Shown here piece after piece: positions 1,321 through 61,092 of a stretch of DNA of 64,000 nt (position 1 is its first letter; each line of letters begins with the position of its first letter). Both the position numbers and the translations under genes were made by a program. Location of the stretch: the NCBI GenBank assembly GCA_964016885.1, contig OZ024742.1:160642001-160706000 (forward strand). The letters are read 5' to 3'. This DNA is from Eledone cirrhosa. Taxonomy: Eukaryota. The notes beneath the pieces were generated by a model that was not told where the DNA came from, did not search any database, and worked only from the letters and a program-made list of their open reading frames with translations.

Positions 1321-1369
1321 GACTGTATATATACATACATGATGATGGTGATGATTGCTACAGCCAATG

Positions 1370-2688
1370 GAAGCTATAGCCAGACATACAAAGCTAGGGC
1401 ATGCGAGGCGAGCGGGGCAATGTCCAGCGATGCAAAATAAGACATAAACAGACACACAACGCTAGAGCTAGCGAGGCGAGCAGGGCAATGTCCAGCGATG
1501 CCAATGCAAGACATAACCAGACACACAAAGCTAGAGATTCCGAGGCGAGCGGCGCTTTTAGCACGGCTAAGCTAAAGGAAGCTATAGCCACAGCTAGAGC
1601 TTCCGCGGCGAGCAGTGTTTTTAGTACAGCTATGCCAAAGGAAGCTATAGCCACTGTTAGAGCTTCCGAGGCGAGCAGTGTTTTTAGTACAGCTATGCCA
1701 AAGGAAGCTATAGCCACAGTTAGAGCTTCCGAGGCGAGCAGTGTTTTTAGTGCAGCTATGCCAAAGGAAGCTATAGCCACTGTTAGAGCTTCCGAGGCGA
1801 GCAGTGTTTTTAGTACAGCTATGCCAAAGGAAGCTATAGCCACAGCTAGAGCTTCCGAGGCGAGCAGTGTTTTTAGTACAGCTATGCCAAAGGAAGCTAT
1901 AGCCACAGTTAGAGCTTCCGAGGCGAGCAGTGTTTTTAGTACAGCTATGCCAAAGGAAGCTATAGCCACAGTTAGAGCTTCCGAGGCGAGCAGTGTTTTT
2001 AGTACAGCTATGCCAAAGGAAGCTATAGCCACAGTTAGAGCTTCCGAGGCGAGCAGTGTTTTTAGTACAGCTATGCCAAAGGAAGCTCTAGCCACTGTTA
2101 GAGCTTCCGAGGCGAGCAGTGTTTTTAGTACAGCTATGCCAAAGGAAGCTCTAGCCACTGTTAGAGCTTCCGAGGCGAGCAGTGTTTTTAGTACAGCTAT
2201 GCCAAAGGAAGCTATAGCCACAGTTAGAGCTTCCGAGGCGAGCAGTGTTTTTAGTACAGCTATGCCAAAGGAAGCTCTAGCCACTGTTAGAGCTTCCGAG
2301 GCGAGCAGTGTTTTTAGTACAGCTATGCCAAAGGAAGCTATAGCCACAGTTAGAGCTTCCGAGGCGAGCAGTGTTTTTAGTACAGCTATGCCAAAGGAAG
2401 CTCTAGCCACTGTTAGAGCTTCCGAGGCGAGCAGTGTTTTTAGTACAGCTATGCCAAAGGAAGCTATAGCCACAGTTAGAGCTTCCGAGGCGAGCAGTGT
2501 TTTTAGTACAGCTATGCCAAAGGAAGCTATAGCCACAGCTAGAGCTTCCGAGGCGAGCAGTGTTTTTAGTACAGCTATGCCAAAGGAAGCTCTAGCCACT
2601 GTTAGAGCTTCCGAGGCGAGCAGTGTTTTTAGTACAGCTATGCCAAAGGAAGCTATAGCCACAGCTAGAGCTTCCGAGGCGAGCAGTG
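1370..2688. repeat. 63-bp minisatellite: about 17.5 homogeneous copies (1581-2688) plus about 3 diverged upstream copies
   Basis: Unit GCTATAGCCACAGTTAGAGCTTCCGAGGCGAGCAGTGTTTTTAGTACAGCTATGCCAAAGGAA; translates as 21-aa repeats on both strands (ORFs 1401-2771 + and 1394-2662 -). Confidence 0.95.
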
Positions 2689-5749: not shown

Positions 5750-7041
<1,292 letters not shown>

Positions 7042-7172: not shown

Positions 7173-7666
7173 GGGTTTTCTTAAGGCCCGGTCGCTGGTG
7201 ATGGTGATGGCGGCGGTGGTGGTGGCGGTGGCAGTTGATGTTGTTGTTGTGTTGTGTGCGTGTGTGTGTGTGTTTTGTTATTTTGAGTTTTTTTGTTTGT
7301 TTGTGTTTTTATCGTTTGATGCCGCTGTTGTTGTTGTTGTAAATATTCATTACAAATCATTCTGAAGCTGTTGTTGCTGTAAACATTAGTGCCGGTGTTG
7401 TTGTAGATGTTGGGGTTGAAATCTGGTCGTTTGACTGAGTGATGTATATACACACATATACATACGTATATATATATATACACACACACATTCAACAGAG
7501 AGTAGAGAGTTTGACAACAGGTCGGTGACTTTAGTCTAGATAGGGTAATGACATGTGTAAATGTATTTTTTCTTTTTTTTTTTTTGCGCGGGGACAGAAA
7601 TAATCGCGCAGTTAATTTAATAATAATTTTTCTGCTTTTGGCACGGATCCAGCGACTGCTCCAGCG

Positions 7667-7775
7667 CATTACTGGTACTCTCTTTTGTTGACTCCGTGGG
7701 GATGAAAGGCAAGGTTGACCTCGGCGGGATTTAAGCTCAGAGCGTGGAGAGCCATAGCTCTATGCTGTAAAGCAA
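7667..7775 (-). mobile_element. SINE fragment (tRNA-like family)
   Basis: Reverse complement contains CTGAGCTTAAATCCCGCCGAGGTCAACCTTGCCTTTCATCC, as in the other copies. Confidence 0.75.
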
Positions 7776-8129
7776 TTATAATAATACTGGCTGTAATACG
7801 AACGGCTTCAACGATACAAACTCTTGAAAGTCAACAGTTGACATAATCTTATAATCTTGTATCAGTAATGACGGTAATATATATATGAGTGTGTGTGAAA
7901 GTGAGTAGCGTGTGTGTGTTTGTATGTATGAGTGTTGCTGTGAGCGCGCGTATGTATGCGTGTGTGTGCGCGCGTATGTATGCGCGTGTGTGTATGTCGT
8001 ACGTATAAGTGTCAATAAGTGAGTTTTTCTTTTTTTTTTTGCGCGCGGGGACATAGAAATAATCGGGCTGGATGCCCGATCGCGCAGTTAAACTACTGGG
8101 AGTGAAGAACCCCTAGCACTTGTCAGGGC

Positions 8130-8330
8130 TTTCTTCTAGGAGAAGGCATCTCAAGAAACTGGGTTAACTCCGACACAAAACATGCGGCTCAGTAGTTACC
8201 GATGATGTTGATCTTTTCTTCTTTTCGGGTTATAGCTACTGTCGCTCAGAGAGTGGGATTGGCTCATTGCACACTCTTTCCTCACTTTAAAAATATTCGT
8301 CACGCACAGGCATTGCACGATTGCATTAAT
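8130..8330 (+). repeat. Unnamed dispersed repeat, diverged homologue of 21065-21230
   Basis: Shared blocks TTCTAGGAGA, CCGATGATGTTGA, GCTCAGAGAGTGGGATTGG, CACTTTAAAAA. Confidence 0.65.
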
Positions 8331-8332
8331 AA

Positions 8333-8745
8333 TTAAGAGGAAAATCAGGGTGGAGAGGCAAGTGCTGCTTTCTAGCAAGTTTGTTGAAAGGTGGGTGAAT
8401 GTAGCGAGAATGGCCTGAATATACGTCTGTAGTTTGAGAGATGGAAAAATTGAGAGAGGGCGCTTGCCCTGGTGGTCAGGGTGGCCGTGGTCTTTTGTGT
8501 GGTTTTCGCCACGAGTAACCCTCGGAGGTTTCCCCCCTATTGGGGAATTTTTCATTGTTTCAATTTTCATTTTTATTGTTTATATATATATATGTTTCTA
8601 TGTCCTTTCTTTTCTTTTCTTATATAAATAATAAAAATATTTACACGCACAACACCCACATCGTACCGTCCTGTACCGTTCTGTGCCGTCTGTAATGTTT
8701 TTCTTGATGTCAGCCCTTGTGGCCAATAAAGAAATCATTCATCAT
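8333..8745 (+). mobile_element. 5'-truncated Tx1-like LINE, subfamily B (ORF2 end plus 3' UTR)
   Basis: Homologous to 18698-19061 but diverged; ends CCCTTGTGGCCAATAAAGAAATC followed by (ATT)n. Confidence 0.85.
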
Positions 8746-8765
8746 TATTATTATTATTATTATTA

Positions 8766-8922
8766 TGTCCCTCGGAAGTCTCCCCCCTATTGGGGAATTT
8801 TTCATTGTTATTTTTTTTGTTACATCCTCTGTTGTTTTTTTACACGCAGAAATGCCCATTTGTACCGTCCTGTATCGTCCTGTACTGTCCTTAATGTCAA
8901 CCCTTGTGGTTAATAAAGAAAG

Positions 8923-8923
<1 letters not shown>
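8766..8923 (+). mobile_element. Very short 3' fragment of Tx1-like LINE, subfamily A
   Basis: Close match to 3' UTRs at ~18895-19061 and ~55795-55956; (TTA)n on both sides. Confidence 0.85.
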
Positions 8924-8977
<54 letters not shown>

Positions 8978-8978
<1 letters not shown>

Positions 8979-9292
8979 GCAGTCCTGAGAGTGGCTGGCT
9001 TTGGGCCAGTCTTCCGAAGCTGGATCGCTGCCATCCACAGCGACCGACATCTGCTCTGTGGTGAGAGTGAACGGTCACCTTTCGGAACCGTTCAACATCA
9101 TGCACTCGGTCCACCAAGGATGTCCCCTCTCCTCCCTCTTGTACGTATTGACTCTCGATATATATGTTTTATGTCCTTTTTTTTTCTTTTTATATAAAAA
9201 TATTTACACGCACAAAACTCACATCGTACCGTCCTGTGCCGTCTGTGATGTTTTTCTTGATGTCAGCCCTTGTGGCCAATAAAGAAATCATT
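8978..9292 (+). mobile_element. Chimeric Tx1-like fragment: internal RT piece fused to subfamily-B 3' UTR
   Basis: 8978-9158 matches ~17197-17373; 9159-9292 matches ~8585-8740. Confidence 0.8.
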
Positions 9293-9308
9293 AATAATTA
9301 TTAAGAGT

Positions 9309-9341
<33 letters not shown>

Positions 9342-9343
<2 letters not shown>

Positions 9344-11450
9344 TTCATTTATCTTGCTTTATGTTCATACGAGTTATCACCAAGTCACAACCAGTGACCT
9401 CAAGAGACAACAAGGTCCGCCATGTTCAAGAAAGAACATACATATTCACACATGCATCCTTAGTGTTTAGACTTGTGATGTACTTATATTGACAGGATCT
9501 TCCTTAGTATATGGGCAGTTCCCATTAGTACTATCTTTTGTATTTCTCCTATACGCGGGTTTCCTGGGATTTGCGATAAGTAGTCGTTAGACCCCTTAGG
9601 TATAATTCCCAGAGCGCCTACAACCACTGGTATTGTTTTAGTTCTCAATTTCCACATTTTTCCAATTTCTATCTCCAGGTCCTTATACTTGCTCAATTTT
9701 TCAAATGTTTTTATAGATACATTCTTGTCTATTGGAACAGACATATCAATTAGCAGGCATACCCTCCTTTGAAAGTCCTTCAATATTATATCAGGTCTAT
9801 TTGCATCTATTTTTCGGTCTGTTTGGATGCTAAAGTTCCACAAGATTGAGATGTGATCTTTTTCAAGTATGGGAGGGGGTTGATTCTCCCACCAATTCTT
9901 TTGATGAGGCAGATCAAAATGCTTACACATTATCCAATGTATGTATTGTGCAGCTCTGTCCTGCCTGTTTAGGTATTCGGTTGGAGCTATAGGACTGCAC
10001 ATTGAAATTATATGGTCAATGGTCTCTGGTTGTTTTTTGCATACACGGCATAATGGGCTGCACCCATTTTTTATTATGTTGGCTTGGTAATTTTTTGTTG
10101 GCAGACACTGATCTTGTGCCGATATAATTAGTCCTTCAGTCTCCGATTTCAGTCCAGAGGATGCCAACCACTGATGGGTTAAAATTTTGTCAACATCAGG
10201 ATTGTTAGCTCGCTCTGGGTATTTTCCATACAGAGGCTTTTCTTGCCATTTCTTAGCCAGTTTCTGTAGCAGTTCTTTCTTTGCAGTTACTTTTACCTGC
10301 TTTGCTTTTTCTGTGTTTTCCATTTCAGCAGTAAATGGGACTTCTGAAATTTGTAGTCCATTACTGTATCTTTGTGCATCTTTTGTAATGAAATATGATC
10401 TTTTGGTGCTTTCGTGTTTCAAAACGAGTTTGATCATCCAATCATGTGATTCCCTTAGATATGTGGATAATCCAATTGTTGCAGTTTTCAACGCAATGTC
10501 TAACTGGATTAACCCACGTCCTCCTTCTTTCCTAGGGAGATATATTCTATCTATGTCTGACTTAGGGTGATGCATTCTGTGCATGGTTAAGAATTTTCGG
10601 ATTTTTGTATCGAGCCTACGGATCTCTGTGCTTGACCAGTTGATGACATTGTAACTGTAGGTTACTACTGGTATGGCAAGCGTGTTTATGGCATCGATCC
10701 TATTCCTTGCATTCAATTCCGTTCTTAAGATTGCTCTGACTCTGCGGTAACATTCCTTCCTTATCCTTTCCCTCATTGTCGAGTGCTTGATTCCGTCTCC
10801 TTCACAAACGCCTAGATATTTGTAAGTTTTTTCTTGATCAAGCTCTCTTATCACGTTCCCCCGATCAAGATTAATGTCTGAACTCTTCAGCAGCTTTCCT
10901 CTGGTGAACGTTGCTTTGGCGCATTTATCTAGTCCAAACTCCATTTTAATGTCATCACTGAACTGCTTCACACTGGATAATAGCCCTTGCAATTGTTCAT
11001 CATTTTTTGCAAATAGTTTCAGGTCATCCATGTAGAACAGGTGATTAATGGTTTTGTCATAGACTCTATATCCATGTTTTGTTTCATTGAGCATTTTACT
11101 TAATGGTATAAGTGCGATGCAGAATAAAAGCGGTGATAAAGAGTCACCCTGAAAAATTCCACAATTAATATTAACTTCTCCAGCTTCCAGTGATTTTGTT
11201 TCACTATTCAAAAGGAGTGTCGTTCTCCATGTCTTCATACTGAATGACAAAAACCTCCTGACAACGGGGGATATTTTGAAAATCTCTAAACATTTTTCAA
11301 TCCAACTGTGTGGCAATCTATCGAATGCTTTTTTATAATCTATCCAAGCAATCGATAGATTTTTGTGTCTATTATGACAATCTTCCAGTATCATTTTGTT
11401 AACCAGAAGCTGATCCTTACTGCCATATGAGCCTCGTTTACACCCTTTCT
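9342..11450 (-). mobile_element. 5'-truncated R4/Dong-clade non-LTR retrotransposon, family B
   Basis: Contains ORF 9484-11394; 3' UTR shared with copy at 46416; TAA-repeat flanks. Confidence 0.9.
9484..11394 (-). CDS. Partial RT + CCHC + restriction-like endonuclease (R4/Dong family B), uninterrupted frame
   Basis: [59 protein letters not shown]. Confidence 0.9.
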
Positions 11451-11496
11451 TCTTCTACTTCTTCTTCTTATTATTAGTATTATTGTTATTGTTATT

Positions 11497-13101
11497 CCTT
11501 GAATCTCAGTCATTGATGTTGGTTAACTGGAAAGTCCGTTGGATTGAATATCAAGCCACTACCTGCAGCCTCAGATATTCAGGACGTATCGGAGGGTTCT
11601 TGCTGTTCCAAGCAAGCATGCCTTTTGAAGCGTTCCAAAAAGCGTGAAGGGGCCGATTTTCTTTAACCATCCCTGGAAACTTTTGGAGATAGTCCCCAGT
11701 GCGCCTATGACAATCGGGATCACTTTGACTTCATGGCAGTTCCAAATCCTTTTCACCTCCCACTTTAGGTCATGGTATCGGTTAATTTTCTCCTTCTCCT
11801 TCTCTTGCACTCTCGTGTCGAACGGGCAGGCCACATCCACAATCAGACACGATCTTTTTTCTTTGTCCACAACCACCAGGTCAGGTCTATTGTGTTCCAG
11901 TTTTTTGTCCTTCTGTATCCTAAAATCCCACAGCACCTTCACCTGATTGTTCTCCATCACCGCCTCTGGCCTATGCTCATACCATTTCTCAGAATGTGGT
12001 AGATTGTTTACTTTGCACAGGTGCCAGTGGATCACCCTGCCCATCACATCGTGTCTCCAGCCCTTATAGTGGGTCTGGGCTAGGTGTTTACACTCGGACA
12101 CAATGTGAGCCACAGTCTCCTCTCTCTCTCCACAGATCCTGCACAGTGGGCTAGCCTCCTCCTTGTAGATATGGTGCTTCAACCACTTCGTTTTGAGGGC
12201 CTGCTCCTGCGCAGCCATTAGCATTCCTTCTGTAGCCTTTTTGAGGTCTCCTCTTCTCAACCAGTTCCATGTCTGTGGATCTCTAAATTCAGTTTTCTCA
12301 AAGAAGGTACTATGAAGGGATTTTCCCTTAAGGCTGCTCTTCCTCCTTGATGTTATTTCCTCCCTGGACATCCCCTGGCCTACTGTCCCCTCCTTCAGTA
12401 CAGTTCTGAGCATTGGCTCCTTACTATAGGTCACGTATTTGTATAGGTTGTTTTTCTCCATCTGAACACAGTCCTCTATGCTGATAAGACCTCTTCCACC
12501 CTCAGATCTCCTTAGGTAGAGTCTATCGACATCACTCCTCCTAGTCTTCCTATCCATTTCTTTTTGTTCAGCAACATTCCATCTCAGAATTCCCGCACTG
12601 TACCTAATAATAGACACAGCTCGGGAATTTACTGCGCTTATGGCATTTCTGCTGTTCAGATGTGACTTCAATACGCTCCTTACTCTCCGAATGTATTCAG
12701 TTCTTAACAATTCCTTCATTTTTTTGTTCTTTATGCCATCAGCCTCCAGAACGCCCAAATACTTGTATCCTTCCTCAGAGTCAATTTCCTTTATCATCTC
12801 ACCTGTTGGTATCTGGATCCCGTTACTTCTGCTCAACCTACCCCTCTTCATCACAATGACTCCACATTTACCAATACCAAACTGCATACATATATCACTG
12901 TTGAAAATACGGACAGTGTCAACAAGCACATCCAACTCCTTCTCACTTTTCCCGAAGAGCTTAAGATCGTCCATGAAGAGGAGGTGATTGATGGTAAGCT
13001 CTCCCCTTCCCAACTTGTATCCTGCTCTCACTTTTCGCAGCATAATGGTCAAGGGCATCAGGGCAAGGACAAACAACAGAGGGGACAGGCTATCTCCCTG
13101 G

Positions 13102-13102
<1 letters not shown>
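11497..13102 (-). mobile_element. 5'-truncated R4/Dong-clade element, family A (ORF 11571-13076; in-frame 33-bp deletion)
   Basis: [39 protein letters not shown]; lacks [11 protein letters not shown] present in sister copies. Confidence 0.9.
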
Positions 13103-13135
<33 letters not shown>

Positions 13136-13357
13136 TTATTATTGGCGACCTACGTAGTAAATCGTATCATCGTGAGCTCGGTTTGCAAAGGTTTGTTATT
13201 TTCAGTTATTTAAAATTGCCATTTATGGAAAATGTTTATTGTTAACTGTATATAAGTGCACATACATTGTTATCTGAAAAGGACACCCAAAAAGATTGGG
13301 GCCTTGTGCCCAAAATTTAAACTTTTATGATTATCAAAAAATTTCTTTGAAAAAATC

Positions 13358-15357
13358 ATGGCTGATTCACCTCTGCACCAAGCAACTGAGAGCCTTCCTC
13401 ACAAATTAACACCTCACACCGACACCACCATTGTAAATATCACTACGTTTGCCAACACTAAAAATATAAGCAGTAGCAATATTTTAAATTTGTCTCAGGC
13501 AGACATTCATTTCCGGCCATTACCAATGACTGCAGGTGTTAAAGCCGCCACCACCACCACCACCACCGCGACAACCCCCCCCCCCCCACCGCGACAACCC
13601 CCCCCCCCCCCCCCCCCCCACCCCCACCCCACCACCACCACCACCACCACCACCACCACCGCGACAACAGAAACAAAAGAAAAAAATAAATTAACTCGTG
13701 ATGTCGAAATGAATTCAACCAAAATGAACTCTTCCACACCGAACACCACTGACGCCACCACCGCCACAACTGAAACTAAAATTAATAATAACAAAAATAA
13801 CGATAACAACAACAGCAACAATGACATTAAGAAAGCCACCATGAGTTTTGCCAGAGTAGCAAAACAGTGCGAAGCATTTCAGGTAACTCAGGAGGAATTA
13901 GAAGAAGTCAAAAAATGGTAAAGAAAGATGGGTACAGGGTCAGCCCCCCGCCCCCCACACCTAATAAAATGGAGCATCGGCGCCTATGCACCGTGTCTTA
14001 TCGAACAATTAATGTAAAATCGCTCCGAGTGGAACGGGCATCCGAGTCCCAAATCCAAAAAGCTTTGGGACATGTGTGGGCAAAAAAAAACCCACATCAG
14101 GCGTGGGCAGTAGTATGGAACCGTGGACGTGTTCTTTCAAACACCAGAGGAGGCTAGAGAACACTCCATGGCCCCATTAAGAAGTGACGACTTCACACTC
14201 GTCCCAAGCTATTGTGGCCAGAGACTCGTAAAGATCAGGGTCACCCACGTTCCACCGGCCATCGAAATTCCCTGGCTAATAGCTGCCGTCCTCGCCGGCA
14301 TCGAAGCCAACACCAAGATAATAGAAATAGCGAAAGAAAAGCAGGAAAACTGGTCCGGATCTGGGATGGAGCTCCTGATCCAAGCGGACCCAAAAAGCAT
14401 TGAGGAGATCCCAGAGGTAATAGACCTCACTGACGGCAGCCACCTCACCGTAATTGTCGAGGGCAGAAAGCCTAGGTGTGTCGTTTGTGGTGAAGGAACC
14501 CACCTAAGGGCTTTCTGTCCTCAGGCTAAAAGGTTGAGGCCACCTCTCCTACCCACCCCAGTGACTCAACCATCACCACCACCAGTAGCAGAGATGGCAG
14601 CAACAACAGAAGCAACTGTAACAGCAACAACCCCAGCAACAGTAGCAAAACCAACACCACCACCACCCAACGCTTCAGAACTAGCACCAGCGCCTACACC
14701 ATCCACCACGCCACAACCAAAACTAATGCCTGTGGAGGATTTTCCACTTCCCGGCCTATCACAACTGGAGACAGATTGTGACGACGAGGAGTGGGGAAAC
14801 GGTATCAGGAAAAAAGAAAAAAAGAAACCGAAAAAGAAAAAAATTCTCTGCCTTCCCCCTCCAAAAACAAAATACAGAGGGAAACAAATAAACTATCAAA
14901 CAAAAAAGTCAGGACAGACATGCCACCATCCACACCAGCATCACCAACCCCATCACCCCAAACACCAACACCACCATCACCTACACCACAAAAGTCACCA
15001 AAATGCGAAACAAAAACAAACCCACAACAAACGCAAACAAAACAAAACAACCAAAACGATACACACTACACAGCATTAAATTTGAACAACAACCAATTAT
15101 TACACTACATCCAACACAACACCAGCATCACAGAAAAAGACTACACAACAACCCAAAAGTTCACACCACCTCCACACATACAAATCTCTCGCATCACACA
15201 GAAAACGTACATGACACTAAAACAAAAATTCCCCAGAGACATCGGAGACTTCCGACAAGCACTCTCCAGGAGGATTTATAAGGACATCCTTCCTGAGGAG
15301 GCCACACGCAGTGAAAAGGATGGAGAAACTGTCCTTCCTCTACGAGAAGTAAGGTAA
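13358..15357 (+). pseudogene. Tx1-like ORF1 (gag-like, zinc knuckle), frameshifted
   Basis: CVVCGEGTHLRAFC = CX2CX4HX4C; split over ORFs 13358, 13867, 14123, 14791, mostly at homopolymers. Confidence 0.8.
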
Positions 15358-15391
15358 GTTGTCTTTCCCATCTTTTCCACTCCATTTCAAC

Positions 15392-18300
15392 ATGACCTCA
15401 CTCAGAATAGGCAGTATAAATGCGCGTGGCTTGGGGTCGTCATGGACACAGGGCCACCTGCTCAACGACCTCAGCTCACTAAACATAGATGCAGTGGCCA
15501 TCAGCGAGACCAAAATCTCCGAAGCACGGGCTTTCGCACCGATCTTCGGCGGCTACGATGTGTACGCATCTCCCAGCCGTCCGGGATCGGGAGGAGGAGT
15601 TGCTGTGCTTTTTCTTAGAGGTTTGGATCTTGCCATACGGGGCATCTTCCTGGACCCAGAAGGTAAGTTGATGGTGCTGGCCGTGACCAGCGGAGACGGG
15701 CAAGCTTTTAGGTTAGTGGCCGTCTATGCCCCGACAGGTGCAGGGCGGCCTGATTTCTTCCGGCGTCTGGAGACGTTTCTTGGAACGTCCCGCTCTTTAG
15801 TGTTAGTGGGCGACTGGAACGGGATCTTAGATGCACGCTGGGACTGTGTGGGATTAGTGGATAGGGGAGGAGGGTGCAAGAGTCTCACCAACCTGCTCAG
15901 GCGTTTTGAGCTGCCTGACAGGTACCGATTGGATTTCCCGAATGTGCCAATGTGGACTTGGACAAATCGCATAGGGTCATCCAGATCATATCTAGATAGA
16001 GTATTTTGTAGAGAAATAGATAGGTCTAGCATAGGCTGTCCACAATTCAAGATAGTCAGCTACACGGACCACAAATTCGTGATCTGTGTGCTTGAGTTAG
16101 ATAGGCTTCATAGACGAGGACCCGGCTACTGGAAGCTAAACGCGTCCTTACCAGCGCGCAAGGCCTACAGAGACCGGATTAGCGAACTAGTTAAGTGGGC
16201 GTTGACGGGGGCCATCGTCAACAACAAGTGGTGGTTTGCTCTGAAAAGAGCAATTAGAATAGAGTCAATTAGGTTTAGTAAGGCTTTAGCAATAGAGAAA
16301 AATAGAGCAGAGGGAGAATTAGTTAGGAAATTAGACGAGGCGCTTAGAAAAGGCATCGCGACCGACGTACTTGCGGCGAAATTGGCCTTTGACCAATTCT
16401 TCAATGCAAAGCACGAAGGCTGCGTTGTCAGAGCTAGGGTGTGTGCTCTCAGACACGAGGGGACGAAAGCCGTTCAATGGGCCCGAGTGGCGGAGGCACG
16501 TCGTGGCAACAAAGCCACGATACGGTCTTTGGTGGCCCACGACGTGCGCATGCTACTCGATCCCGGGCAAATGTGTGAAGCTTTCCAGCGACACTTCGCT
16601 CAGCTGTTTGGGAGCAGCGGCGGCCGAATCGAGGGATGGACTTTAGTGTCCACCTCGACGGACTGCCGCGGCTCTCGACCACTGAGGCGGAGTGTTGCGA
16701 AAAGCCGATAACAGCCGCTAAAGTACGGGAGGCAATGACTGGCTGCATAAGGGCGGATGGCCTGGTTTGGATGGTCTGCCCTATGAACTTTACGTACAGA
16801 TGCCAGACATGTTCGGAGGCCTCTTGGCGGACGTCTACTGCAAATGTCAACACAACAGAACGGGAGAATTCCCAGTTCTGTGAGCCGAGGAGCGGTGGCA
16901 CTGCTGAGAAAGGATCCGAACAAGGGGGATAACATAGATAATTTTAGGCCCATAACTCTGCTAAACACAGAGTTCAAGATTTTGGACAAGGTGCTAGCAA
17001 AGAGGTTGGCGCTTGTCGTTGGTGGTCTGGTGGGAGAGGCGCAGACATGCGCCATTCCCTACAGATCCATCCACGACAACCTCCACCTCATGCGATACAT
17101 CGTAGAGAGGGTAGCTAGGGAACCTGGCACGCGTGGGTCCTTGATCAATTTAGATCAGTCTAAAGCTTTCGATAGGGTCGACCATCGTTACCTAGCGGCA
17201 GTCCTGAGGGCGGCTGGCTTTGGGCCCGTCTTCAGAGGCTGGATCGCTGCCATGCACAGCGACATCTGCTCTGTAGTGAGAGTGAACGGTCATCTGTTGG
17301 AACCGTTCAACATCATGCGCTCGGTCCGCCAAGGATGTCCCCTCTCGTCCCTCTTGTACGTATTGACTCTCGAGCCATTACTGCACAAACTGGAGACGTT
17401 GAGAGGGGTCCCGCGCGAACTAGGATGCGGAAGATCCGTGTCAGCATATGCGGACGATGTCACCGTAGTGGTGTCGAACGGCAAACACATCGAGGCGAGC
17501 GGCACTACACTAAGAGAATACGAAGCGGTGACAGGAGCAATGATCAACCAGGAAAAGTCAGTGGGCCTGCAGCTCGCACCTGGAGAGGCAGGTCCATGCC
17601 GTCCAACAGCGTCGTCGGACGCTGGACGGACGGACCGGTTAAATTGCTAGGGGTCTGGTTCGGTCCGGACCTCCAGACGGACAAAAACTGGGACGAGGTG
17701 ACGAGCAGGGTGGCTTCTCTCACCCAGAAATGGGCGGAGAGGAAGCTATCCCAGAAAGGTCGAGCGGAGGTGGCTAACGCGTACATCGCGTCTGTCATCT
17801 GCTACCGCCTGACCGTTGTACCTTGTCCTAAGACTTGCCTGACTGCGCTGGAGCGTTTGCTCTTTCGCTTTTCGTGGAAGGGACGCGCTCCGATGGTCAG
17901 ACGATCCATCTGTTGTCAACACCCGCTACGTGGAGGGCAGGGCATGCCGTGGCTGATGATGCGCAGGCACGCGCTCAGGCTACGACATCTCCACCTCTTC
18001 CTCGACGGTGATCAGGTGTGGTCGCCGTTTGCTAGACACGTATTTCCCCAGCTCGTTTCCTTGACGGAGCTGCAGTCCTGGGTCAAGCGAAGACCGAGAG
18101 GGAGCGCCTGGAGACTGGAGTGTCTTCAGGCGCTCACAGCGCTCGACCAATCGGGCAATGTGATCGGTGGAAACTCCACCTCGGCGTTCTATAGAGGATT
18201 AGTGGAGGGGAAGAGCGACGACGTACTTGGGGGAAACTCTAGGCGTCGACGAAAATCAACTAGCCAATCTCTTCGGAAGAACTTTCGGGCCAGGGCCTAT

Positions 18301-18813
18301 GGAGAACTTCCAGAAATCTCTGGCCTGGCAGTGCTACCGAGGAGCCTTGCCAGTTCGGGATAAACTCTACAGGCATGGAGGTGCCGTCAGTCGGGCATGT
18401 CCGAGATGCGCGCAGGGCGACGAAACCGTCCTGCACGCACTCGTCCAGTGTCCGAAAATTGCTGACTTGTGGGTTTATGTCGAACACCTGCTGTCGCGTT
18501 TAGGACGGATCCGGCTATCATCTGAGTCCATCGTGAGGATTGCCCCGCCCTCCTCCTTTAGCCGGGAAGGGCAGGCAGTTTTTATCTGTCTGGTGGCCAT
18601 GGCGAAAGAGATAGTATGGTGGAAACGTTTGAAAGGGCTGAAGACGAGCACTTACCTCTTCGGTGATGCTCTGATTGACTTTTTCAAATTTCATTTAAAA
18701 GGAAAATCAGAGTAGAGAGGGAAGTGCTCTCTTCCCAGCATTTTGTTGAAAGATGGGTGAGAGAAGCAAGAATGGCCCGAGTGAATGAGCCTACTCTGAG
18801 TATATATCTGTAA
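15392..18813 (+). pseudogene. Tx1-like ORF2: APE endonuclease + RT + C-terminal zinc finger, frameshifted
   Basis: SINARGL, ISET, VYAP, VGDWN, SYLDRV, TDHK, GYWKLN, FRPITLLN, DQSKAFDRV, RQGCPLS, YADD, CPRC..ETVLHALVQC. Confidence 0.9.
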
Positions 18814-19145
18814 ATTAAAGGTGGAAAACTGGGAGAAGGCACTTGCCTTGGTGGTCAGGGTCATTGTGGCCTTTTACTGGGCTTTCTCCACAAATGTCCC
18901 TCCGAAGTTTCCCCCCTATTGGGGAATTTTTCATTGTTATTTTTTGTTACATCCTCTGTTTTTGTTTTATACGCAGAAATGCTCATTTGTACCGTCCTGT
19001 ATTGTCCTGCACTGTCCTTAATGTCTACTTTATGTAAACCCTTGTGGTTAATAAAGAAATCATTATTATTGTTGTTATTATTATTATTATTATTGTTATT
19101 AATGTATATGTGTGTATATATATATATATATGTGTATATATATAT

Positions 19146-21589: not shown

Positions 21590-21777
21590 GTCGGTGTATT
21601 GGCAGTATCGGTAGAGGGTCGGACGCCATGCTTTCCAGCATAGTTACGTCCCTTTACGATCTGAGTTCAAATCCCGCCGAGGTTGACTTTGCCTTTCATC
21701 CTTACGGGATCGATAAAATAAAGTACCAGTAATGAACTGGGTATTTGCTGGCCTTGTCTCTAAAGTAGAAACAATTA
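21590..21777 (+). mobile_element. tRNA-like SINE
   Basis: A-box-like TGGCAGTATCGG, B-box GAGTTCAAATCCC; six or more copies in the window; ATT-rich flanks. Confidence 0.85.
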
Positions 21778-21937: not shown

Positions 21938-22046
<109 letters not shown>

Positions 22047-22225
22047 ATTTAGTATATCTACTAACATATGCGTACAGATGTACGCTAATGCTAGCAAATA
22101 CACAGGTTATGTCATAGTACCTAGGTGGTTCAATGCAGGAGGATGCAGAACAATAATATAAAAGACGTAAAGTAAGAAAATTTAAAAAAATCTTTTTAAA
22201 AATTAACTTACTTACTAAAATTTTC

Positions 22226-22307
22226 ACTCCAACTAATTAGTTTCTGCAATGGGATAAAGACAGTTACGTAATTTAACTGTCGAGAATTCATTGCGTCATC
22301 AGGGAGT
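22226..22307 (-). ncRNA. Type I hammerhead ribozyme motif
   Basis: Reverse-complement copy of 23052-23133. Confidence 0.8.
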
Positions 22308-23051
22308 TTATTCTCAGCTAAGTCTCCAGGCAATGCGCGGACACTGGGGACTCATATAAAAATAATAATAATTCAGTAGATGGAACAGCTAGCGGGACTG
22401 GATTCCATGCACTGAAAAGCTCGCTGTCTCTAGTCAAGTGGCTGATTCTAAAGAATCAATCACGTGACACTGAGGCTAGTCGGTAGGAGTGGGATGGTAA
22501 GATGACAGAAGCCTACTATCACACCAATAAATTAGTAGTGGTTTTGGCAGGTTTGCTCAACAAATAAGTAATTTGGAGATAAATATAGAGAATTTAGTAT
22601 ATCTACTAACATATGCGTACAGATGTACGCTAATGCTAGCAAATACACAGGTTATGTCATAGTACCTAGGTGGTTCAATGCAGGAGGATGCAGAACAATA
22701 ATATAAAAGACGTAAAATAAGAAAATTTTTAAAATTTAAAAAAAAAATGTAGTAGATATACTAAATTCTCTATATTTATCTCCAAATTACTTATTTGTTG
22801 AGCAAACCTGCCAAAACCACTACTAATTTATTGGTGTGATAGTAAGCTTCTGTCATCTTACCATCCCACTCCTACCGACTAGCCTCAGTGTCACGTGATT
22901 GATTCTTTAGAATCAGCCACTTGACCAGAGACAGCGAGCATTTCAGTGCATGGAATCCAGTCACCGCTATCTGTTCCATCTACTGAATTATTATTATTTT
23001 TATATGAGTCCCCAGTGTCCGCGCATTGCCTGGAGACTTAGCTGAGAATAG

Positions 23052-23133
23052 ACTCCCTGATGACGCAATGAATTCTCGACAGTTAAATTACGTAACTGTC
23101 TTTATCCCATTGCAGAAACTAATTAGTTGGAGT
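23052..23133 (+). ncRNA. Type I hammerhead ribozyme motif
   Basis: ACUCC-CUGAUGA-c GCAAUG...CAUUGC a-GAA-ACUAAUUAGU-U-GGAGU: 5-bp stem I, intact core, palindromic stem III. Confidence 0.8.
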
Positions 23134-23193
23134 GAAAATTTTAGTAAGTAAGTTAATTTTTTAAAAAATTTTTTAAAATTTTCTTATTTTACG

Positions 23194-23307
<114 letters not shown>

Positions 23308-27870: not shown

Positions 27871-28100
27871 GGTGGTGTGTTGACAGAACTGATAGAGCGT
27901 CGAACAAAATGTTTTGCGGCATTTAGTTACGGCTCCTTACGATCTGAATGCAAATCCCACCGAGTTCAACTTTCATTTTCAAACTTCTGGGGGTCGATAA
28001 AATAAAGACCCAGTTAAGCATTAGGCTCGAAGTTATCGATCTAACCTCCTCCCCACTTAGAAAACATTAAACACTGGCCTTGTACTTAAATTAGAAACCA
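27871..28100 (+). mobile_element. tRNA-like SINE, diverged
   Basis: Colinear with the 21590 and 32429 copies, ends GGCCTTGTACTTAAATTAGAAAC. Confidence 0.8.
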
Positions 28101-32101: not shown

Positions 32102-32428
32102 GTGTTATATATGTATGTATATATATATATATATATATTTATATATACAAACATATACATATGTATGTGTGTGTCTGCATATATACACACATATATATAT
32201 TTATTTTATTTCCCAACTGATAGATATGCTTTTAAACACTATTTTATAAATATTACTTTGACTTGTACGTATTTTGCATCTCTGCTTTGCTATTCACACA
32301 ACTAACACAGTTGAGTGCAGAGTTCTTCGAATTTCCTGCTATCGGGTTTTTCTTAACGGCCTTCTCTTTATAGAGACACTTGATTCTTATAATGTCTGAA
32401 ACTGCTATCATTATCATTGAAACACACA

Positions 32429-32632
32429 GGGCGGTGGGTTGGCAGTATCGGTAGAGAGTCGGACACCATGCTTTGCAGCATAGAGTTACGGTCCTTTACG
32501 GTCTGAGTTCAAATCCCACCGAAGTTTACTTTGCCTTTCATCTTTAAAATAAAGCACCAGTAACGTACTTGGGTCGATTAAATCGACTCTCCCCTCCCCA
32601 CAAATTACTGGCCTTGTGCCTATACAAGAAAT
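32429..32632 (+). mobile_element. tRNA-like SINE
   Basis: A/B boxes; ATCATTATCATTG duplicated near both ends (candidate TSD). Confidence 0.85.
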
Positions 32633-34722: not shown

Positions 34723-34906
34723 TGTTACTACTTTAGGCACAAGGCCAGCAATTACCCAGTACATTACTGGTACTTTATTTTATCGACCTCGTAAGGATGA
34801 AAGGCAAAGTCAACCTCGGCGGGATTTGAACTCAGATCGTAAAGGGACGTAAATATGCTGGAAAGCATGGCCTCCGACACTCTACTGATGCTGCCAATCC
34901 ACCGCT
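34723..34906 (-). mobile_element. tRNA-like SINE inserted in Penelope A 3' region
   Basis: 16-bp TSD CTGGAGTATRAATAAT at 34707-34722 and 34907-34922. Confidence 0.9.
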
Positions 34907-37790: not shown

Positions 37791-40700
37791 ATTGATGAAT
37801 AGTATGCATCGATGTCGAATTGGAGAAATGAAGCTGAGGGCTTATTTTTGATGTTGGTGAACCAATTGATAACTTGGGAAGTGTTTTCCCATAGCGGTAG
37901 TTTTACATGCTTCCTTATTTCTGTGATAATTTTATCAAGAATATTTTTGCTTATTACTCCGATGTCGGACTTAGATGCATACTATTCATCAATATCCCCC
38001 ATACTACTGAACAAAGCATTAATTTTCGCCAAAAATAGATCGGACTTAACTATGAATGAAATTAAGATCATCTCACACGCCAGACAAACTCTATTGGACT
38101 TCCAGGACGAGTATTGGACTAGGAATACTTATAGTGATTTATATGATATTACTATGGGCTCAATGGATTCCGCCCAGGTTACGGACCTGTGGGCCTCTTC
38201 CCCTTACATAATTTGAATTCCTCTTTTCCGCATCTCAATGGGCTCTATATCGCGATGACTTTCTTCTAGCTAATAATCTTAGTCTCTCAGCAATTGCGAG
38301 AAATAAAAAGCATATTAGGAAATTCCTCAAAAATTACTATAATCTTATGGTTACTTTTGAAAATAGCACTAAAATGGTCAATTTCCTCGACATCTCTTTA
38401 GACCTATCAACAGGCACTTACCAACCCTACCACAAACCAAACCAAAACCTCCATTATATACATTCACTATCTAACCACCCTAGTTCCATACTAAAAAATC
38501 TAGTCTTCAATATCTCACTCAGACTATCTAAATTATCATCTAGTGAAGAAATATTCTATAAAAATGCACCTTATTATAATGAGGCTTTAATTAGATAAAA
38601 TATTTTACATACCTAACACCATAAATACCCCTAGCATACAGCCAACAATAAGCAACAGACACCGTAGAAAACACCAAAAAGTTAGTGCCAGCAATAAAAC
38701 ACCGAAAAACCTAGATCCTACTATTACTCCCAATATCCACATTAACACAAATTCTCTAAAAATCATCAATCTTAACGATTCCGAATATTTCTATAACTTG
38801 CCTAATATTATTACTACAAATCGTGCGAAAACACCTAACTCCACTACTCTTAAAAAAGCAGTTAATAATAACACCTTATATCTTAATTCTCACAATAAAC
38901 CTAATGATATATCACCTATCTCATCGAACCTTCAACATAACCAAACTACACCCTTGCAATCCAAAAAACTAGAGAAACATATCCGAACTATCGTATATAG
39001 CAAGAATGATACCGAAATTCCAGGTCCTATCAATAATGCTCCATTAATAAAACACACAGTATCTTCTACAAATCAAACAAAAAGCAATAAATCAAAAGCT
39101 AATACAATTCAAAAATCTACTCAATAATTAGTTCACACCCATAATAACAATCACAATGTTATAATTTCATCTGATAACAATATTTACCCCAAACTTCTAT
39201 ACATACCCAATATAACAAGAGGAAACCTTTTAGAAACCATAAAAGAAATGTAACATGGTATAACGTTCCATTCAACTTGCAAACTATGGGCCAAATCCCT
39301 AAAAGATTTTTTACAATTCTCGATAAGTATTTCCCACCTAACCACAAATACCATCAAATCTTAAACAGAAATACAGTAACATTTTCTTACTCCACATCGA
39401 GCAATATACAACAAAATATAAGTGCATATAACATCTATAAATGTAAAAAAACTCCATCTATACCACACACAATAACACACCACACACAAGATAACTATGG
39501 TAATACTACAACGCATAACCAGAATATTACTGCATATTACCTGATGAATCCGCTCACTCACCTCACCAGCACAATATAGCAGACTACAACCAACTAGCAT
39601 CTTCCTCATCCTTAATAGGGACTAAGATTTACATACCCAATCTAACTAATAGCGTCCAAAACAACCATGACTCCATAAACGCTACATCAACTATAATTTC
39701 ACCTACTAGCAACAATTCGGATTATAACCACCCTACCGTAAACCCTTCTCTCCCAAATAAAAAGGTAAACACAAATACTAGCACTATTATTGAGAATATG
39801 GATAGCACATCTGAAACGCTATATGCAAACGGTTGTAATAGTAGAATAAAAGATAATTGCCTCTTAAATGGAAATTGCTTAATTAATAATATAGTATATA
39901 AATGTGTAATCACCACTAAAGACTCTAATCAATCCTATATAGGATCCACTTCTAATCCATTTAAATCGAGATTTTATGCACACATCCACGGTTTCCGAAA
40001 CACAAAATTAGCAAATACTACTTCTTTAGCAGAAGCAGTTAATAATTGTAAAAAGAAGAATATCAAATATAACCTAACTTGGAAGATTCTTAAGAGAACT
40101 ATTTCTTATCAGAGCAATTGAAGGGAGTGCGAACTATGTTCCCATGAAATTTTTGAAATTACTAAATCGAAGGACACTCTATTAAATAAAAGACAAAAAT
40201 TAATTTTAGTATGTAACCATAAAATTAGAAGGACATTCAAATATTATAAATACAACTAAACAAATATAGAAAAAGATATAGGTGAATAAACGTGTGAGTA
40301 TAGGTGTGTGTGTGAATATGTATATCTGTGTGTGTATATGTATGTATATGCATAAATGTATGCCTATATATAAACATGTGTGACTATACATCTATATATA
40401 TATATTTTTTATATTATATATTTTTAGAACGAATTATTCCTCACAACAAAGAAATAACTAACTTTTTAAGATTGTTCTATTCTTGATGTAACACACTAAT
40501 CTCAGTACCCCTTTTCCTCCAACCGTAATCTTCTTTGACCATCAACACTTTTATATACAATATGCCTAAATTCATTTACACTAAGAACTTTCATTTCTTT
40601 TCTTAAAAGACACTTGATACCTTATCCACTGCTGGCCTATTTATTCATCTACTACCACCAGCCTTAAGGATTTATATTGCCCCTTTCCATTCTTAACATT

Positions 40701-44783: not shown

Positions 44784-44790
<7 letters not shown>
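42620..44790 (-). mobile_element. Penelope-like element C, 3' half (linker + GIY-YIG + long AT-rich 3' region; left boundary approximate)
   Basis: IIWYSPSFS, IFNRHTIKLSYS, CNC..PL..CL, LVYKCTV..YIGGT, then ERWYNHKHTF and CHLCIEE in another frame. Confidence 0.8.
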
Positions 44791-44854
<64 letters not shown>

Positions 44855-44856
<2 letters not shown>

Positions 44857-45366
44857 TTGAGTCACAGTCAGTGATGTTAGTTAACTGGAAAGTTTGTCGA
44901 AATGAATATCAAGCCACTACCTGCAGCCTCAGATATTCAGGACGTATCAGAGGGTTCTTGCTGTTCCCAGCAAGCATGCCTTTTGAAGCGTTCCAAAAAG
45001 CGTGAAGGGCCAATTTTCTTTAATCATCCCTGGAAACTTTTTGAGATAGTAACTAGTGCGCCTATGACAATCGGGACCACTTTGACTTTATGGCAATTCC
45101 AAATCCTTTTAACTCCCATTTTAAGTCCTAGTATCGGTTAATTTTCTCCCTCTCCTTCTCTTGCACTCTCGTGTCGAATGGGCAGGCCACATCCACAATC
45201 AGGCACGATCTTTTTTCTTTGTCCACAACCACCAGGTGGTTGTGGACAAAGAAATGTGTTCCAGTTTCTTGTCCATCTGTATCCTAAAATCCCACAGCAC
45301 CTTCACCCGATCGTTTTCTATCACCGACTCTGGTTTATGCTCATACCACTTCTCAGAATGTGGTAA

Positions 45367-45369
<3 letters not shown>
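44855..45369 (-). mobile_element. R4/Dong family A, short older 3' fragment
   Basis: Homologous to 45430-45940; (TTA)n on both sides. Confidence 0.85.
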
Positions 45370-45429
<60 letters not shown>

Positions 45430-45430
<1 letters not shown>

Positions 45431-46396
45431 CTTGAATCTCAGTCATTGATGTTAGTTAACTGGAAAGTCCGTTTGAATGAATATCAAGCCACTACCTGCA
45501 GCCTCAGATATTCAGGACGTATCGGAGGGTTCTTGCTGTTCCCAGCAAGCATGCCTTTTGAAGCGTTCCAAAAAGCGTGAAGGGGCCGATTTTCTTTAAC
45601 CATCCCTGGAAACTTTTGGAGATAGTCCCCAGTGCGCCTATGACAATCGGGATCACTTTGACTTCATGGCAGTTCCAAATCCTTTTTACCTCCCACTTTA
45701 AGTCTTGGTATCGGTTAATTTTCTCCCTCTCCTTCTCTTGCACCCTCGTGTCGAATGGGCAGACCACATCCACAATCAGACACGCTCTTTTTTCTTTGTC
45801 CACAACCACCAGGTCAGGACTATTGTGTTCCAGTTTCTTGTCCGTCTGTATCCTAAAATCCCACAGCACCTTCACCTGATCGTTCTCCATCACCGCCTTT
45901 GGCCTATGCTCATACCATTTCTCAGAATGTGGTAAATTGTTTACTTTGCACAGGTGCCAGTGGATCACCCTGCCCATCACATCATGTTTCCAGCCCTTAT
46001 AGTGGGTCTGGGCTAGGTGTTTACACTCGGATACAATGTCAGCCACAGTCTCCTCTCTCTCTCCACAGATCCTGCACAGTGGGCTAGCCTCCTCCTTGTA
46101 AATATGGTGTTTCAACCACTTCGTTTTGAGGGCCTGCTCCTGCGCAGCCATTAACATTCCTTCTGTAGCCTTTTTGAGGTCTCCTCTTCTCAACCAGTTC
46201 CATGTCTGTGGATCTCTAAATTCAGTTTTCTCAAAGAAGGTACTATGAAGGGATTTTCCCTGAAGGCTGCTCTTTCTCCTTGATGTTATTTCCTCCTTGG
46301 ACATCCCCTGGCCTATTGTCCCCTCCTTCGGTACAGTTCTGAGCATTGGCTCCTTACTATCAGTCACGTATTTGTGTAGGATGTTTTTCTCCATCT
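45430..46396 (-). mobile_element. R4/Dong family A, 5'-truncated (ORF 45504-46394, endonuclease domain)
   Basis: CCHC + PD..D motifs; (TTA)n on both sides. Confidence 0.9.
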
Positions 46397-46415
46397 CTTA
46401 TTATTATTATTATTA

Positions 46416-47917: not shown

Positions 47918-47951
47918 TATTATTATTATTATTATTATTGTTATTGTTATT

Positions 47952-50073
<2,122 letters not shown>

Positions 50074-55955: not shown

Positions 55956-55956
<1 letters not shown>
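50074..55956 (+). mobile_element. Full-length Tx1/L1-clade LINE, copy 2 (ORF1 50281-52269, ORF2 52304-55712, both disrupted)
   Basis: Colinear with 13144-19061; zinc knuckle, APE and RT motifs; flanked by long (TTA)n tracts. Confidence 0.9.
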
Positions 55957-56001
<45 letters not shown>

Positions 56002-56013
56002 GTTGTTGTTATT

Positions 56014-59000: not shown

Positions 59001-59600
59001 GTCGTATCTCTGTTCCAGGTATTATTTATCTCAGCATTCAGATCATTGTCTGCTTCGGGTGGTTCCTCCGTTCTCTGGACCTCTTCACCTTCATTTCCCA
59101 CTGGCTCATTTGCCTAACATACTCCACTCTCCATCTCCAACTAATCTCTCTGCTCAGTTCCTCTAGTTCCAGCTCGCTCATCCACCCATTAGTTCTTATT
59201 ACCCGAGCCTGCCCGGCCAATTTTTGTTCATCTAATTTAAATAGACCAATCTCGTTCCATCCTTTTCCTATAGCCTTTCTCCTTGGGGTTACTCTTCAGG
59301 TAACATTGCATAACAGTTCTATTCAATCCTTTCGTCCAGTTGGTTCTGGTCCCTTTCCTTCTTCTTCTTCCTCCGACACCAGCAGTATTTGGTTGACAGC
59401 CAGGTCTCTGCTGCTGAGCCAGGGAGCACCTGCTGGGTGAGAGTCTGTCACATGACATTCTAGTCTCCACTTCACCGTTATTCGAACTGTTTAGGTTCGA
59501 CATTTAAACACTTTATCGAGGATTGGCGAATGTATGGTTACATAACCACCGGTGATTTCATCACCTCCGGTGATTTCGTCACTCCCGGTGATTTTTGTGT
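56014..59600 (-). mobile_element. Near full-length R4/Dong family A element (ORF 59503 to 56088, frameshifted)
   Basis: N-terminal WTKGLNRTVMQCYLKSNPKEKGYRKRM..QARVIRTNGWMSELELEE typical of R4/Dong; EPWWKK; RT; endonuclease. Confidence 0.9.
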
Positions 59601-61064: not shown

Positions 61065-61092
61065 TATTATTATTATTATTGTTATTGTTATT

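What the first reader, a model, noticed from the sequence alone, without database searches (positions are those of the whole stretch)
8333..19101. Cluster 1: two unrelated LINE lineages share one (TTA)n target on opposite strands
Seen: six insertions separated only by TTA-type tracts; all Tx1-like copies on +, both R4-type copies on -. The full-length and two of the truncated Tx1-like copies abut (TTA)n at their 5' ends as well, so the repeat is a target and not only a tail. Established: Dong-type R4 elements target TAA repeats, and some Tx1 families target other microsatellites (TC, TTC). Inference: this is a TTA-targeting Tx1 family that converged on the Dong target with a different endonuclease nicking the complementary strand; each insertion regenerates target, giving self-expanding arrays.
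Basis: partly seen in the sequence, partly recalled or inferred. Interest (0 to 1): 0.75.

Follow-up and report, generated by a model that had tools for sequence, protein, structure and literature searches.

The report
Two LINE kinds share ATT repeats
In this animal genome two unrelated kinds of jumping gene sit in the same ATT/TAA repeats facing opposite ways, likely because each starts copying on a different DNA strand; the pattern holds genome-wide, but three of the six flagged pieces likely arrived as one insertion.

Summary
Cluster 1 holds four pieces of an L1/Tx1-group LINE on + and two Dong/R4-type LINEs on −. Genome-wide, 1,511 of 1,594 young full-length 5′ ends follow 16 nt of pure ATT. 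107 of 124 sampled 3′ ends run into ATT. 100 of 102 Dong 3′ ends run into AAT (background 0.6%). 33 of 33 Dong neighbours face the other way.

Corrections: (1) The three short pieces lie inside one 11-bp duplication, and 14 of 14 paralogous empty sites carry it once. They are likely one composite insertion, so their internal tracts do not show targeting. (2) Only 16 of 43 non-full-length 5′ junctions abut ATT. (3) The nick motif is short: ATTA(T/A). (4) Full-length copies have a 17–18-nt ATT floor and no duplication of the 3′ flank, so they likely carry an (AUU)6 RNA leader.

Tx1-clade membership and nicking are untested. This scan noted the same pattern at least nine times before on other DNA of this genome. 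Verdict: new variant of a known kind.

The parts
7616..8335 (+). Left part (5′ region) of a different high-copy APE-type LINE that hosts the cluster; RTE-like by recalled motifs
   Evidence: 90% match to paralogue L251; paralogues continue into an APE frame; the right half is absent from the window plus the next 20 kb
8325..8335 (+). Left copy of 11-bp target-site duplication ATTAATAATTA
   Evidence: single copy in 14 of 14 empty paralogues
8336..8736 (+). T1: 3′ fragment of Tx1-like subfamily B; its 5′ flank is the duplication, not a TTA tract
8737..8766 (+). ATTCATC(ATT)7 tract between T1 and T2, likely template-derived
   Evidence: inference from the duplication
8767..8923 (+). T2: ~157-bp 3′ fragment of subfamily A
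   Evidence: 87.5% to T4
8924..8978 (+). (ATT)18 tract between T2 and T3, likely template-derived
   Evidence: inference
8979..9289 (+). T3: chimera of a subfamily-A RT piece (8979-9158) and a subfamily-B 3′ end (9158-9289)
   Evidence: junction has 1 match genome-wide with ≤2 mismatches
9290..9300 (+). Right copy of the duplication ATTAATAATTA
9301..9343 (+). Host sequence TTAAGAGTGT plus the host's own (ATT)n tract, into which Dong RA inserted
   Evidence: L256 shows an independent Dong insertion in the same host tract
9344..11453 (-). Dong/R4-type family RA, 5′-truncated; 656-aa open frame with RT, CCHC and RPD..D..K RLE motif
11447..11494 (+). (TTC)n plus degenerate ATT spacer; includes family RB's conserved AATAACAATAAC tail on −
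11495..13101 (-). Dong/R4-type family RB, 5′-truncated, 97% to an intact 4.5-kb copy
13102..13143 (+). Head-to-head (ATT)14 tract between two 5′ ends: target and/or RNA leader, not a 3′ tail
13144..19061 (+). T4: full-length L1/Tx1-group LINE (5′ type A1); ORF1 region then APE-RT-zinc-finger ORF2, both split over several frames
   Evidence: ORF2 and 3′ UTR 95-96% to young intact A2 copies
19062..19101 (+). 3′ ATT/GTT tract

Best explanation
A young, abundant L1/Tx1-group LINE inserts at ATT repeats in one fixed orientation while Dong/R4-type LINEs occupy the same repeats in the other, likely because the first nicks and primes on the (AAT)n strand and the second on the (ATT)n strand.

SHOWN: flank sequences, polarity, copy number, intact ORFs, and duplications of 10-25 bp that begin ATTA in truncated copies and in a co-oriented SINE.

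INFERRED: (1) The APE nicks the bottom strand to leave 5′-ATAAT-3′OH, and this primer pairs with AUU at the RNA 3′ end. (2) Full-length RNA carries about six AUU units at its 5′ end; the cDNA anneals to upstream ATT, giving uniform ATT|G junctions without a duplication and favouring long tracts. (3) The RT switches templates, which would explain T1+T2+T3 as one insertion at an imperfect ATTAA site and the LINE-SINE chimeras. (4) Each insertion leaves ATT on both sides, so later elements of either kind can land there; tandem duplication and deletion also shape the arrays.
For: Full-length 5′ ends: 1,511 of 1,594 exact A2 5′ ends follow 16 nt of pure ATT (the denominator pattern already requires TT); 30 of 30 A1 5′ ends. 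3′ ends: 107 of 124 ATT, 1 AAT. Dong: 100 of 102 3′ ends AAT, 0 ATT; 98 of 135 truncated 5′ ends AAT, 0 ATT. Neighbours of 40 young copies: 33 of 33 Dong opposite, 21 of 21 Tx1 and 5 of 5 SINE co-oriented. Tract preference: 99 of 1,162 background ATTAT sites start a ≥3-unit tract, against 70 of 92 Tx1 3′ ends. Target-derived ATT: duplications in L037, L055, L153 and in the window with empty sites. SINE: 25 non-repeat duplications ≥10 bp among 58 copies against a shuffled mean of 1.1 (max 4); 24 of 24 start ATTA. Leader: A2 5′ tract ≥17 nt in 50 of 52 and 36 of 37, while 9 of the 17 tract-bearing non-full-length junctions have 9-16 nt; 3′ interruptions are not copied to the 5′ side in L132, L145, L152, L156, L136. 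APE catalytic positions align with human L1. Precedent: melanogaster-type R1 (PMC2718515, passages).
Against: 27 of 43 non-full-length 5′ junctions lack ≥3 ATT units (the set includes chimeras and library-limited ends). The base before SINE duplications is T 12, C 8, A 4 of 24, so there is no strict TpA nick. Two full copies run into (CTT)n and one follows (TAG)n. In arbitrary regions only 2 of 9 SINE 3′ ends enter a ≥3-unit tract. The SINE-LINE tail match is modest (p=0.0025 to subfamily B, 0.057 to A2), so the SINE's use as a cut-site reporter is inferred. L141 and L343 repeat an imperfect spacer at both ends, which fits tandem duplication as well as leader capture. Sampled loci were top-scoring hits and their neighbours, not a random draw. 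No RNA or biochemical data.
Confidence: 0.7

Rival explanations
1. The endonuclease is a relaxed AT-rich nicker; specificity comes mostly from base-pairing of AUU at the RNA ends with the nicked DNA (snap-velcro-like), so the convergence on Dong's target is convergence of RNA ends rather than of nuclease specificity.
For: The invariant motif lies on the primer side (ATTA 24 of 24) while the −1 base varies. The hairpin-loop region aligns without gaps to human L1 EN, whereas the LTX and LR1 variants need gaps. Base-pairing contributes to L1 target choice (PMC4014453, abstract).
Against: Duplications start at offset 0 after the element end in 31 of 37 SINE cases, so little RNA tail is added. Known Tx1 target choice is attributed mainly to the endonuclease (PMC4494074, passage).
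Confidence: 0.2
2. ATT is only an element-borne leader and tail; insertion is AT-biased but not targeted, and mixed arrays form because Dong targets the LINE's tracts and because template jumping and tandem duplication stack copies.
For: The composite T1-T3 sits at a non-tract site. 27 of 43 non-full-length junctions lack ATT. A tandem array shares one spacer. Dong targeting of TAA is established (PMC3812793, passage).
Against: Duplications whose left, target-derived copy begins ATTA. 3′ tract length varies from 1 to 100 nt and merges with compound microsatellites. 16 of 43 is still far above 0.6%. Full-length Tx1 copies sit directly after other Tx1 tails.
Confidence: 0.07
3. Passive accumulation: both families insert widely and survive mainly in repeat-rich, gene-poor DNA.
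For: Proposed for Drosophila Waldo-A/B in CA repeats (PMC3812793, passage).
Against: The youngest copies (median 99.3% identity) show the pattern most strongly. Base-precise ATT|G junctions and strict polarity are not produced by selection on location.
Confidence: 0.03

Closest known systems
Kibi (TC)n, Koshi (TTC)n and crocodilian Tx1 families in (TTCC)n/(TTTC)n (PMC4494074, passages and section 15)
   Same: APE-type L1-group LINE that prefers a microsatellite.
   Different: The target here is ATT with core ATTA(T/A). No named member was available for a tree; the nearest proteins found are unnamed (about 40%), and the nearest named one is a Patella caerulea protein at 30%.
Dong (Bombyx mori), DongAg, DongBg, R4 clade (PMC3812793, passage; PMC3774820, passages)
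   Same: The − elements have a single ORF with RT, CCHC and RLE, and TAA on both sides on their sense strand.
   Different: Two families 40% identical coexist and share tracts with an APE element in opposite polarity. No ribozyme family matched in Rfam, which is inconclusive.
Melanogaster-type R1 (PMC2718515, passages)
   Same: Full-length transcripts carry upstream target and give precise 5′ junctions, while 5′-truncated copies have duplications.
   Different: R1 clade and 28S rDNA target; here a dispersed microsatellite, and the leader is inferred from junctions only.
TRAS and SART sharing (TTAGG)n in opposite orientation (recalled, no call)
   Same: Two families use one repeat on opposite strands.
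   Different: Both are APE elements of the R1 clade at telomeres; here the pair is APE versus RLE, at dispersed tracts.
Human L1 ORF2p (PDB 9k6g, 8sxt)
   Same: Best solved-structure match over APE and RT (E 3e-52).
   Different: L1 nicks TTTTT/AA (PMC8565326, abstract start in search listing) and has a poly(A) tail; this element ends AATAAAGAAATC then ATT.

Membership tests
L1 group (L1/Tx1) | ORF2 with N-terminal APE, RT and C-terminal zinc finger, closer to L1 than to R2 | tested here: met
   Pfam PF03372, PF00078, PF13966; L1 ORF2p E 3e-52 versus R2 1e-21
Tx1 clade | RT phylogeny groups with Tx1L, Kibi, Koshi or Keno | not testable with these tools
   No named Tx1 sequence was returned; Repbase and Dfam are not on hand
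Tx1 clade | Sequence-preferential insertion (criterion: >20% of flanks, PMC4494074) | tested here: met
   1,511 of 1,594; 107 of 124
Tx1 clade | Two ORFs, ORF1 with a CCHC knuckle (recalled feature) | tested here: met
   692-aa ORF1 with CX2CX4HX4C seen in the translation; no Pfam ORF1 family matched
Tx1 clade | Endonuclease cleaves the target in vitro | not testable with these tools
   Needs a nicking assay
Dong / R4 clade | Single ORF with RT, C-terminal CCHC and PD-(D/E)xK RLE, no APE | tested here: met
   1,130-aa ORF; best PDB hits are R2, RLE stretch aligned weakly; motifs present in both families
Dong / R4 clade | Inserted in TAA repeats, TAA on the sense strand | tested here: met
   100 of 102 3′ ends; 98 of 135 truncated 5′ ends
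Dong / R4 clade | RT phylogeny with named Dong/R4 | not testable with these tools
   Listed hits were almost all unnamed
Dong / R4 clade | HDV-like 5′ ribozyme (B. mori Dong self-cleavage, PMC3774820 legend) | tested here: inconclusive
   No Rfam match; folding z about 0.2; pseudoknots were not modelled

The most novel reading that the evidence does not exclude
A still-active APE-type LINE has evolved to use Dong's microsatellite on the opposite strand through a bipartite code: a short ATAAT^ nick plus AUU repeats at both ends of its RNA. The 5′ (AUU)6 leader anneals to upstream target and the RT jumps between AUU-ended RNAs, building composites and LINE-SINE chimeras. With thousands of copies, two Dong families and a SINE, this is a dispersed natural system in which nuclease specificity and RNA pairing can be separated, and in which an APE and an RLE enzyme split one repeat by strand.
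Probability: 0.4. Interest if true: 0.7.

Novelty: new variant of a known kind. Interest (0 to 1): 0.5.

Why it matters
Microsatellite targeting by Tx1-group and Dong elements is known. An ATT target for an APE element, shared strand-wise with an RLE element, did not appear in my searches or in the passages read. Kojima and Fujiwara 2004, Repbase entries and the PMC4494074 supplement and figure could not be seen and may already list such a target. About 130 of 147 tied top APE hits lie in intact 1,139-1,204-aa frames (hand count). That makes a tractable test of an open question: how much of LINE target choice is nuclease and how much is RNA-DNA pairing, at both first- and second-strand steps. 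In 20 arbitrary ~10-kb regions these LINEs covered about 11 kb of 200 kb, mostly in one region, so the arrays matter for annotating this genome.

Tried and rejected
A DNA search of the genome with the RB 3′ end found nothing because common words are skipped; a protein search was used instead. My first motif for young copies failed because they carry a different 5′ end (resolved in 31-32). The ESM Atlas held neither ORF2 nor a homologue. Rfam gave only low-complexity matches at 5′ ends and at the host repeat; 5′ ends fold no better than shuffles. Relatives in metagenome contigs were mostly 21-35% identical (up to 48% over short segments) and showed no ATT flanks in the 36 of 71 loci inspected; they are too distant to inform the target. 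Cluster look-ups gave no Tx1 or Dong names. Sequencing runs: no RNA holder listed; contigs laid on the cluster did not span it, though one loose end at 8335 pointed to the empty site. Rejected: segmental duplication of clusters 1 and 2 (different Dong truncation points, T4 93% to its counterpart); a source locus for T3 (junction unique); sequential insertion of T1-T3 with a duplication each time (SINEs that reuse a site leave a duplication per event, L078 and L103, and none lies between T1, T2 and T3). No tree, fold or complex prediction was run.
Full report
ANATOMY. Self-BLAST, ORFs and Pfam resolve 8333-19101 into T1 (8336-8736, 3′ end of subfamily B), T2 (8767-8923, 3′ end of subfamily A), T3 (8979-9289, A-type RT piece fused to a B-type 3′ end), Dong-type RA (−, 9344-11453), Dong-type RB (−, 11495-13101) and full-length T4 (13144-19061). 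T4 encodes APE, RT and a zinc finger over several frames. RA and RB are 40% identical in protein. A second cluster runs from 44853 to about 68300, past the window's end, with the same polarity. The genome is 3.0 Gb. An octopod host is plausible from earlier notes and from the active Dong-R4 and L1-Tx1 families reported for Octopus vulgaris (PMC13282606, first third and passages), but I did not test it.

THE LINE FAMILY. Of 150 scored APE hits, 147 tie at one score and about 130 of them lie in open frames of 1,139-1,204 aa (hand count). Twenty such copies are 99.3% identical at the median. They share ORF2 and the 3′ UTR with T4 at 95-96% but carry a different 5′ UTR and ORF1 (type A2). An intact copy has a 692-aa ORF1 with a CCHC knuckle and a 1,139-aa ORF2. 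Its best solved relative is human L1 ORF2p. No named Tx1 was retrievable, so 'Tx1' remains likely and untested. Dong RB is also young, with many 1,141-aa frames.

IS ATT A TARGET? Yes. 30 of 30 fetched A1 5′ ends have ATT upstream (top 30 of 40 scored, own copy included). Whole-genome exact counts give 1,511 of 1,594 A2 5′ ends preceded by 16 nt of pure ATT. Across fetched loci, de-duplicated by context, 107 of 124 3′ ends enter ≥3 ATT units and one enters AAT. Dong shows the mirror image: 100 of 102 3′ ends and 98 of 135 truncated 5′ ends have AAT, and none has ATT. Around 40 young copies, 33 of 33 adjacent Dong pieces are antiparallel and 26 of 26 Tx1 or SINE pieces are parallel. Background is 0.6%. 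These loci are top hits and their neighbours, so the percentages are not unbiased, except the pattern counts.

ATTAATAATTA occurs at 8325-8335 and 9290-9300. The flank belongs to the 5′ region of another high-copy APE LINE. All 14 paralogues read show the motif once, followed by TTAATAGTGTA and, in 13 of them, an ATT tract. So T1+T2+T3 sit inside a single duplication, about 21 bp before the host's tract, at an imperfect ATTAA site. SINEs that reuse a site leave a duplication each time, and none lies between T1, T2 and T3. The T3 junction is unique in the genome. The simplest reading is one insertion with template switches, or one read-through RNA. The tracts before T2 and T3 are then copied from templates and do not prove targeting. 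The head-to-head tract at 13102-13143 is the better local evidence. The host's right half is missing from the window and the next 20 kb, so a deletion or recombination also shaped the cluster.

CUT SITE. Truncated copies L037, L055 and L153 have duplications of 11-20 bp that begin ATTATTA. A 185-bp co-oriented SINE has a 3′ end resembling subfamily B (p=0.0025 by shuffling; Dong tails p≥0.6). Among 58 SINE copies, 25 have non-repeat duplications ≥10 bp against a shuffled mean of 1.1; in the 24 used for the matrix all start ATTA and 23 ATTAT, lengths are 10-25 bp, and the preceding base is T 12, C 8, A 4 (that scan required ATT after the SINE end). Relaxing the start, 31 of 37 duplications still begin at offset 0. 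By target-primed reverse transcription geometry the primer is 5′-ATAAT-3′OH on the bottom strand (inferred), and Dong must prime on the other strand. The LINE prefers tracts beyond this pentamer: 70 of 92 3′ ends read ATTATTATT against 99 of 1,162 background ATTAT sites, while the SINE in arbitrary regions does so in 2 of 9.

FULL-LENGTH VERSUS TRUNCATED. Only 16 of 43 non-full-length 5′ junctions abut ≥3 ATT units (the set includes T1-T3, chimeras and ends limited by my library). Nine of the 17 with ≥9 nt have only 9-16 nt. Full-length A2 copies have ≥17 nt in 50 of 52 and 36 of 37 (3 of 40 dropped for motif variants). Where the 3′ flank is interrupted early (L132, L145, L152, L156, L136), the interruption is not repeated at the 5′ junction. 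This contrast matches melanogaster-type R1, whose full-length RNA carries upstream target and whose truncated copies have duplications (PMC2718515, passages). I infer an (AUU)~6 leader; L020 and L140 are exceptions, and no RNA evidence exists.

ARRAY GROWTH. Mixed stacks fit repeated targeting. But five tandem A2 copies at C2:188.05 Mb share the spacer ATTATTGTTGTT(ATT)14 before each copy and differ by 0-14 nt. That points to tandem duplication or concatemer insertion rather than five independent events.

COMPARISON AND NOVELTY. Microsatellite-specific Tx1 families (TC, TTC, TTCC/TTTC; PMC4494074, passages and section 15) and TAA-specific Dong (PMC3812793, passage) are known. My searches found no ATT-targeting Tx1; key sources were out of reach. 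Earlier notes of this scan describe the same guild at least nine times elsewhere in this genome (478 notes fit the look-up). I had reached the polarity, SINE and duplication ideas before reading them (notes) and tested them here. One look-up for the leader, template-jump and empty-site points returned nothing. Verdict: real, a new variant of a known kind, interest 0.5.

Noticed in passing
window 44787-64000 and G000:C3 to about window 68300: Second stack of at least ten Dong pieces, one full-length A1 LINE and a SINE, same polarity, running past the window's end.
   Followed up: partly
window 7616-8335; L250-L263: Host is a high-copy APE LINE (RTE-like by recalled motifs) whose 5′ region contains an ATT tract; 2 of 14 paralogues (L256, L259) carry other insertions in that tract, so it seeds targets genome-wide.
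   Followed up: partly
L162-L181 versus window 13144-15310: Subfamilies A1 and A2 share ORF2 and 3′ UTR but have different 5′ UTR and ORF1, and recombinants exist (L133, L136, L189): 5′-end replacement.
   Followed up: partly
L143, L153, L160: Truncated LINE 5′ ends fused to SINE pieces, with ATT outside the SINE: likely template-switch chimeras.
   Followed up: partly
window 7629-7774, 21592-21771, 27893-28020, 32428-32569, 34725-34904: 185-bp SINE copies; the family has ATTAT-starting duplications and a 3′ end like subfamily B.
   Followed up: yes
L243-L246 (G000:C2:188.05-188.08 Mb): Five head-to-tail full-length copies with an identical imperfect spacer; one copy differs by 13-14 nt from the rest.
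   Followed up: partly
P0258 cluster: The nearest named ORF2 relative (Patella caerulea, 30%) occurs as a run of consecutive locus tags (SNE40_003393 to 003415), suggesting a tandem array in a limpet; its target was not examined.
   Followed up: no
window 5844-7041 and 22034-23203: Near-perfect inverted repeats (486 bp at 98.6%; 454 bp at 97.8%), possibly young MITEs or foldback elements.
   Followed up: no
window 1363-2688: 63-bp minisatellite with 18 copies and open frames of more than 430 aa on both strands.
   Followed up: no
window 39519-40121: Weak GIY-YIG match (E 0.0024, below cut-off), possibly a decayed Penelope-like element.
   Followed up: no
window 11483-11496 and most RB copies: RB ends in a conserved AATAACAATAAC before the pure TAA run, so part of its tail is element-borne.
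   Followed up: partly
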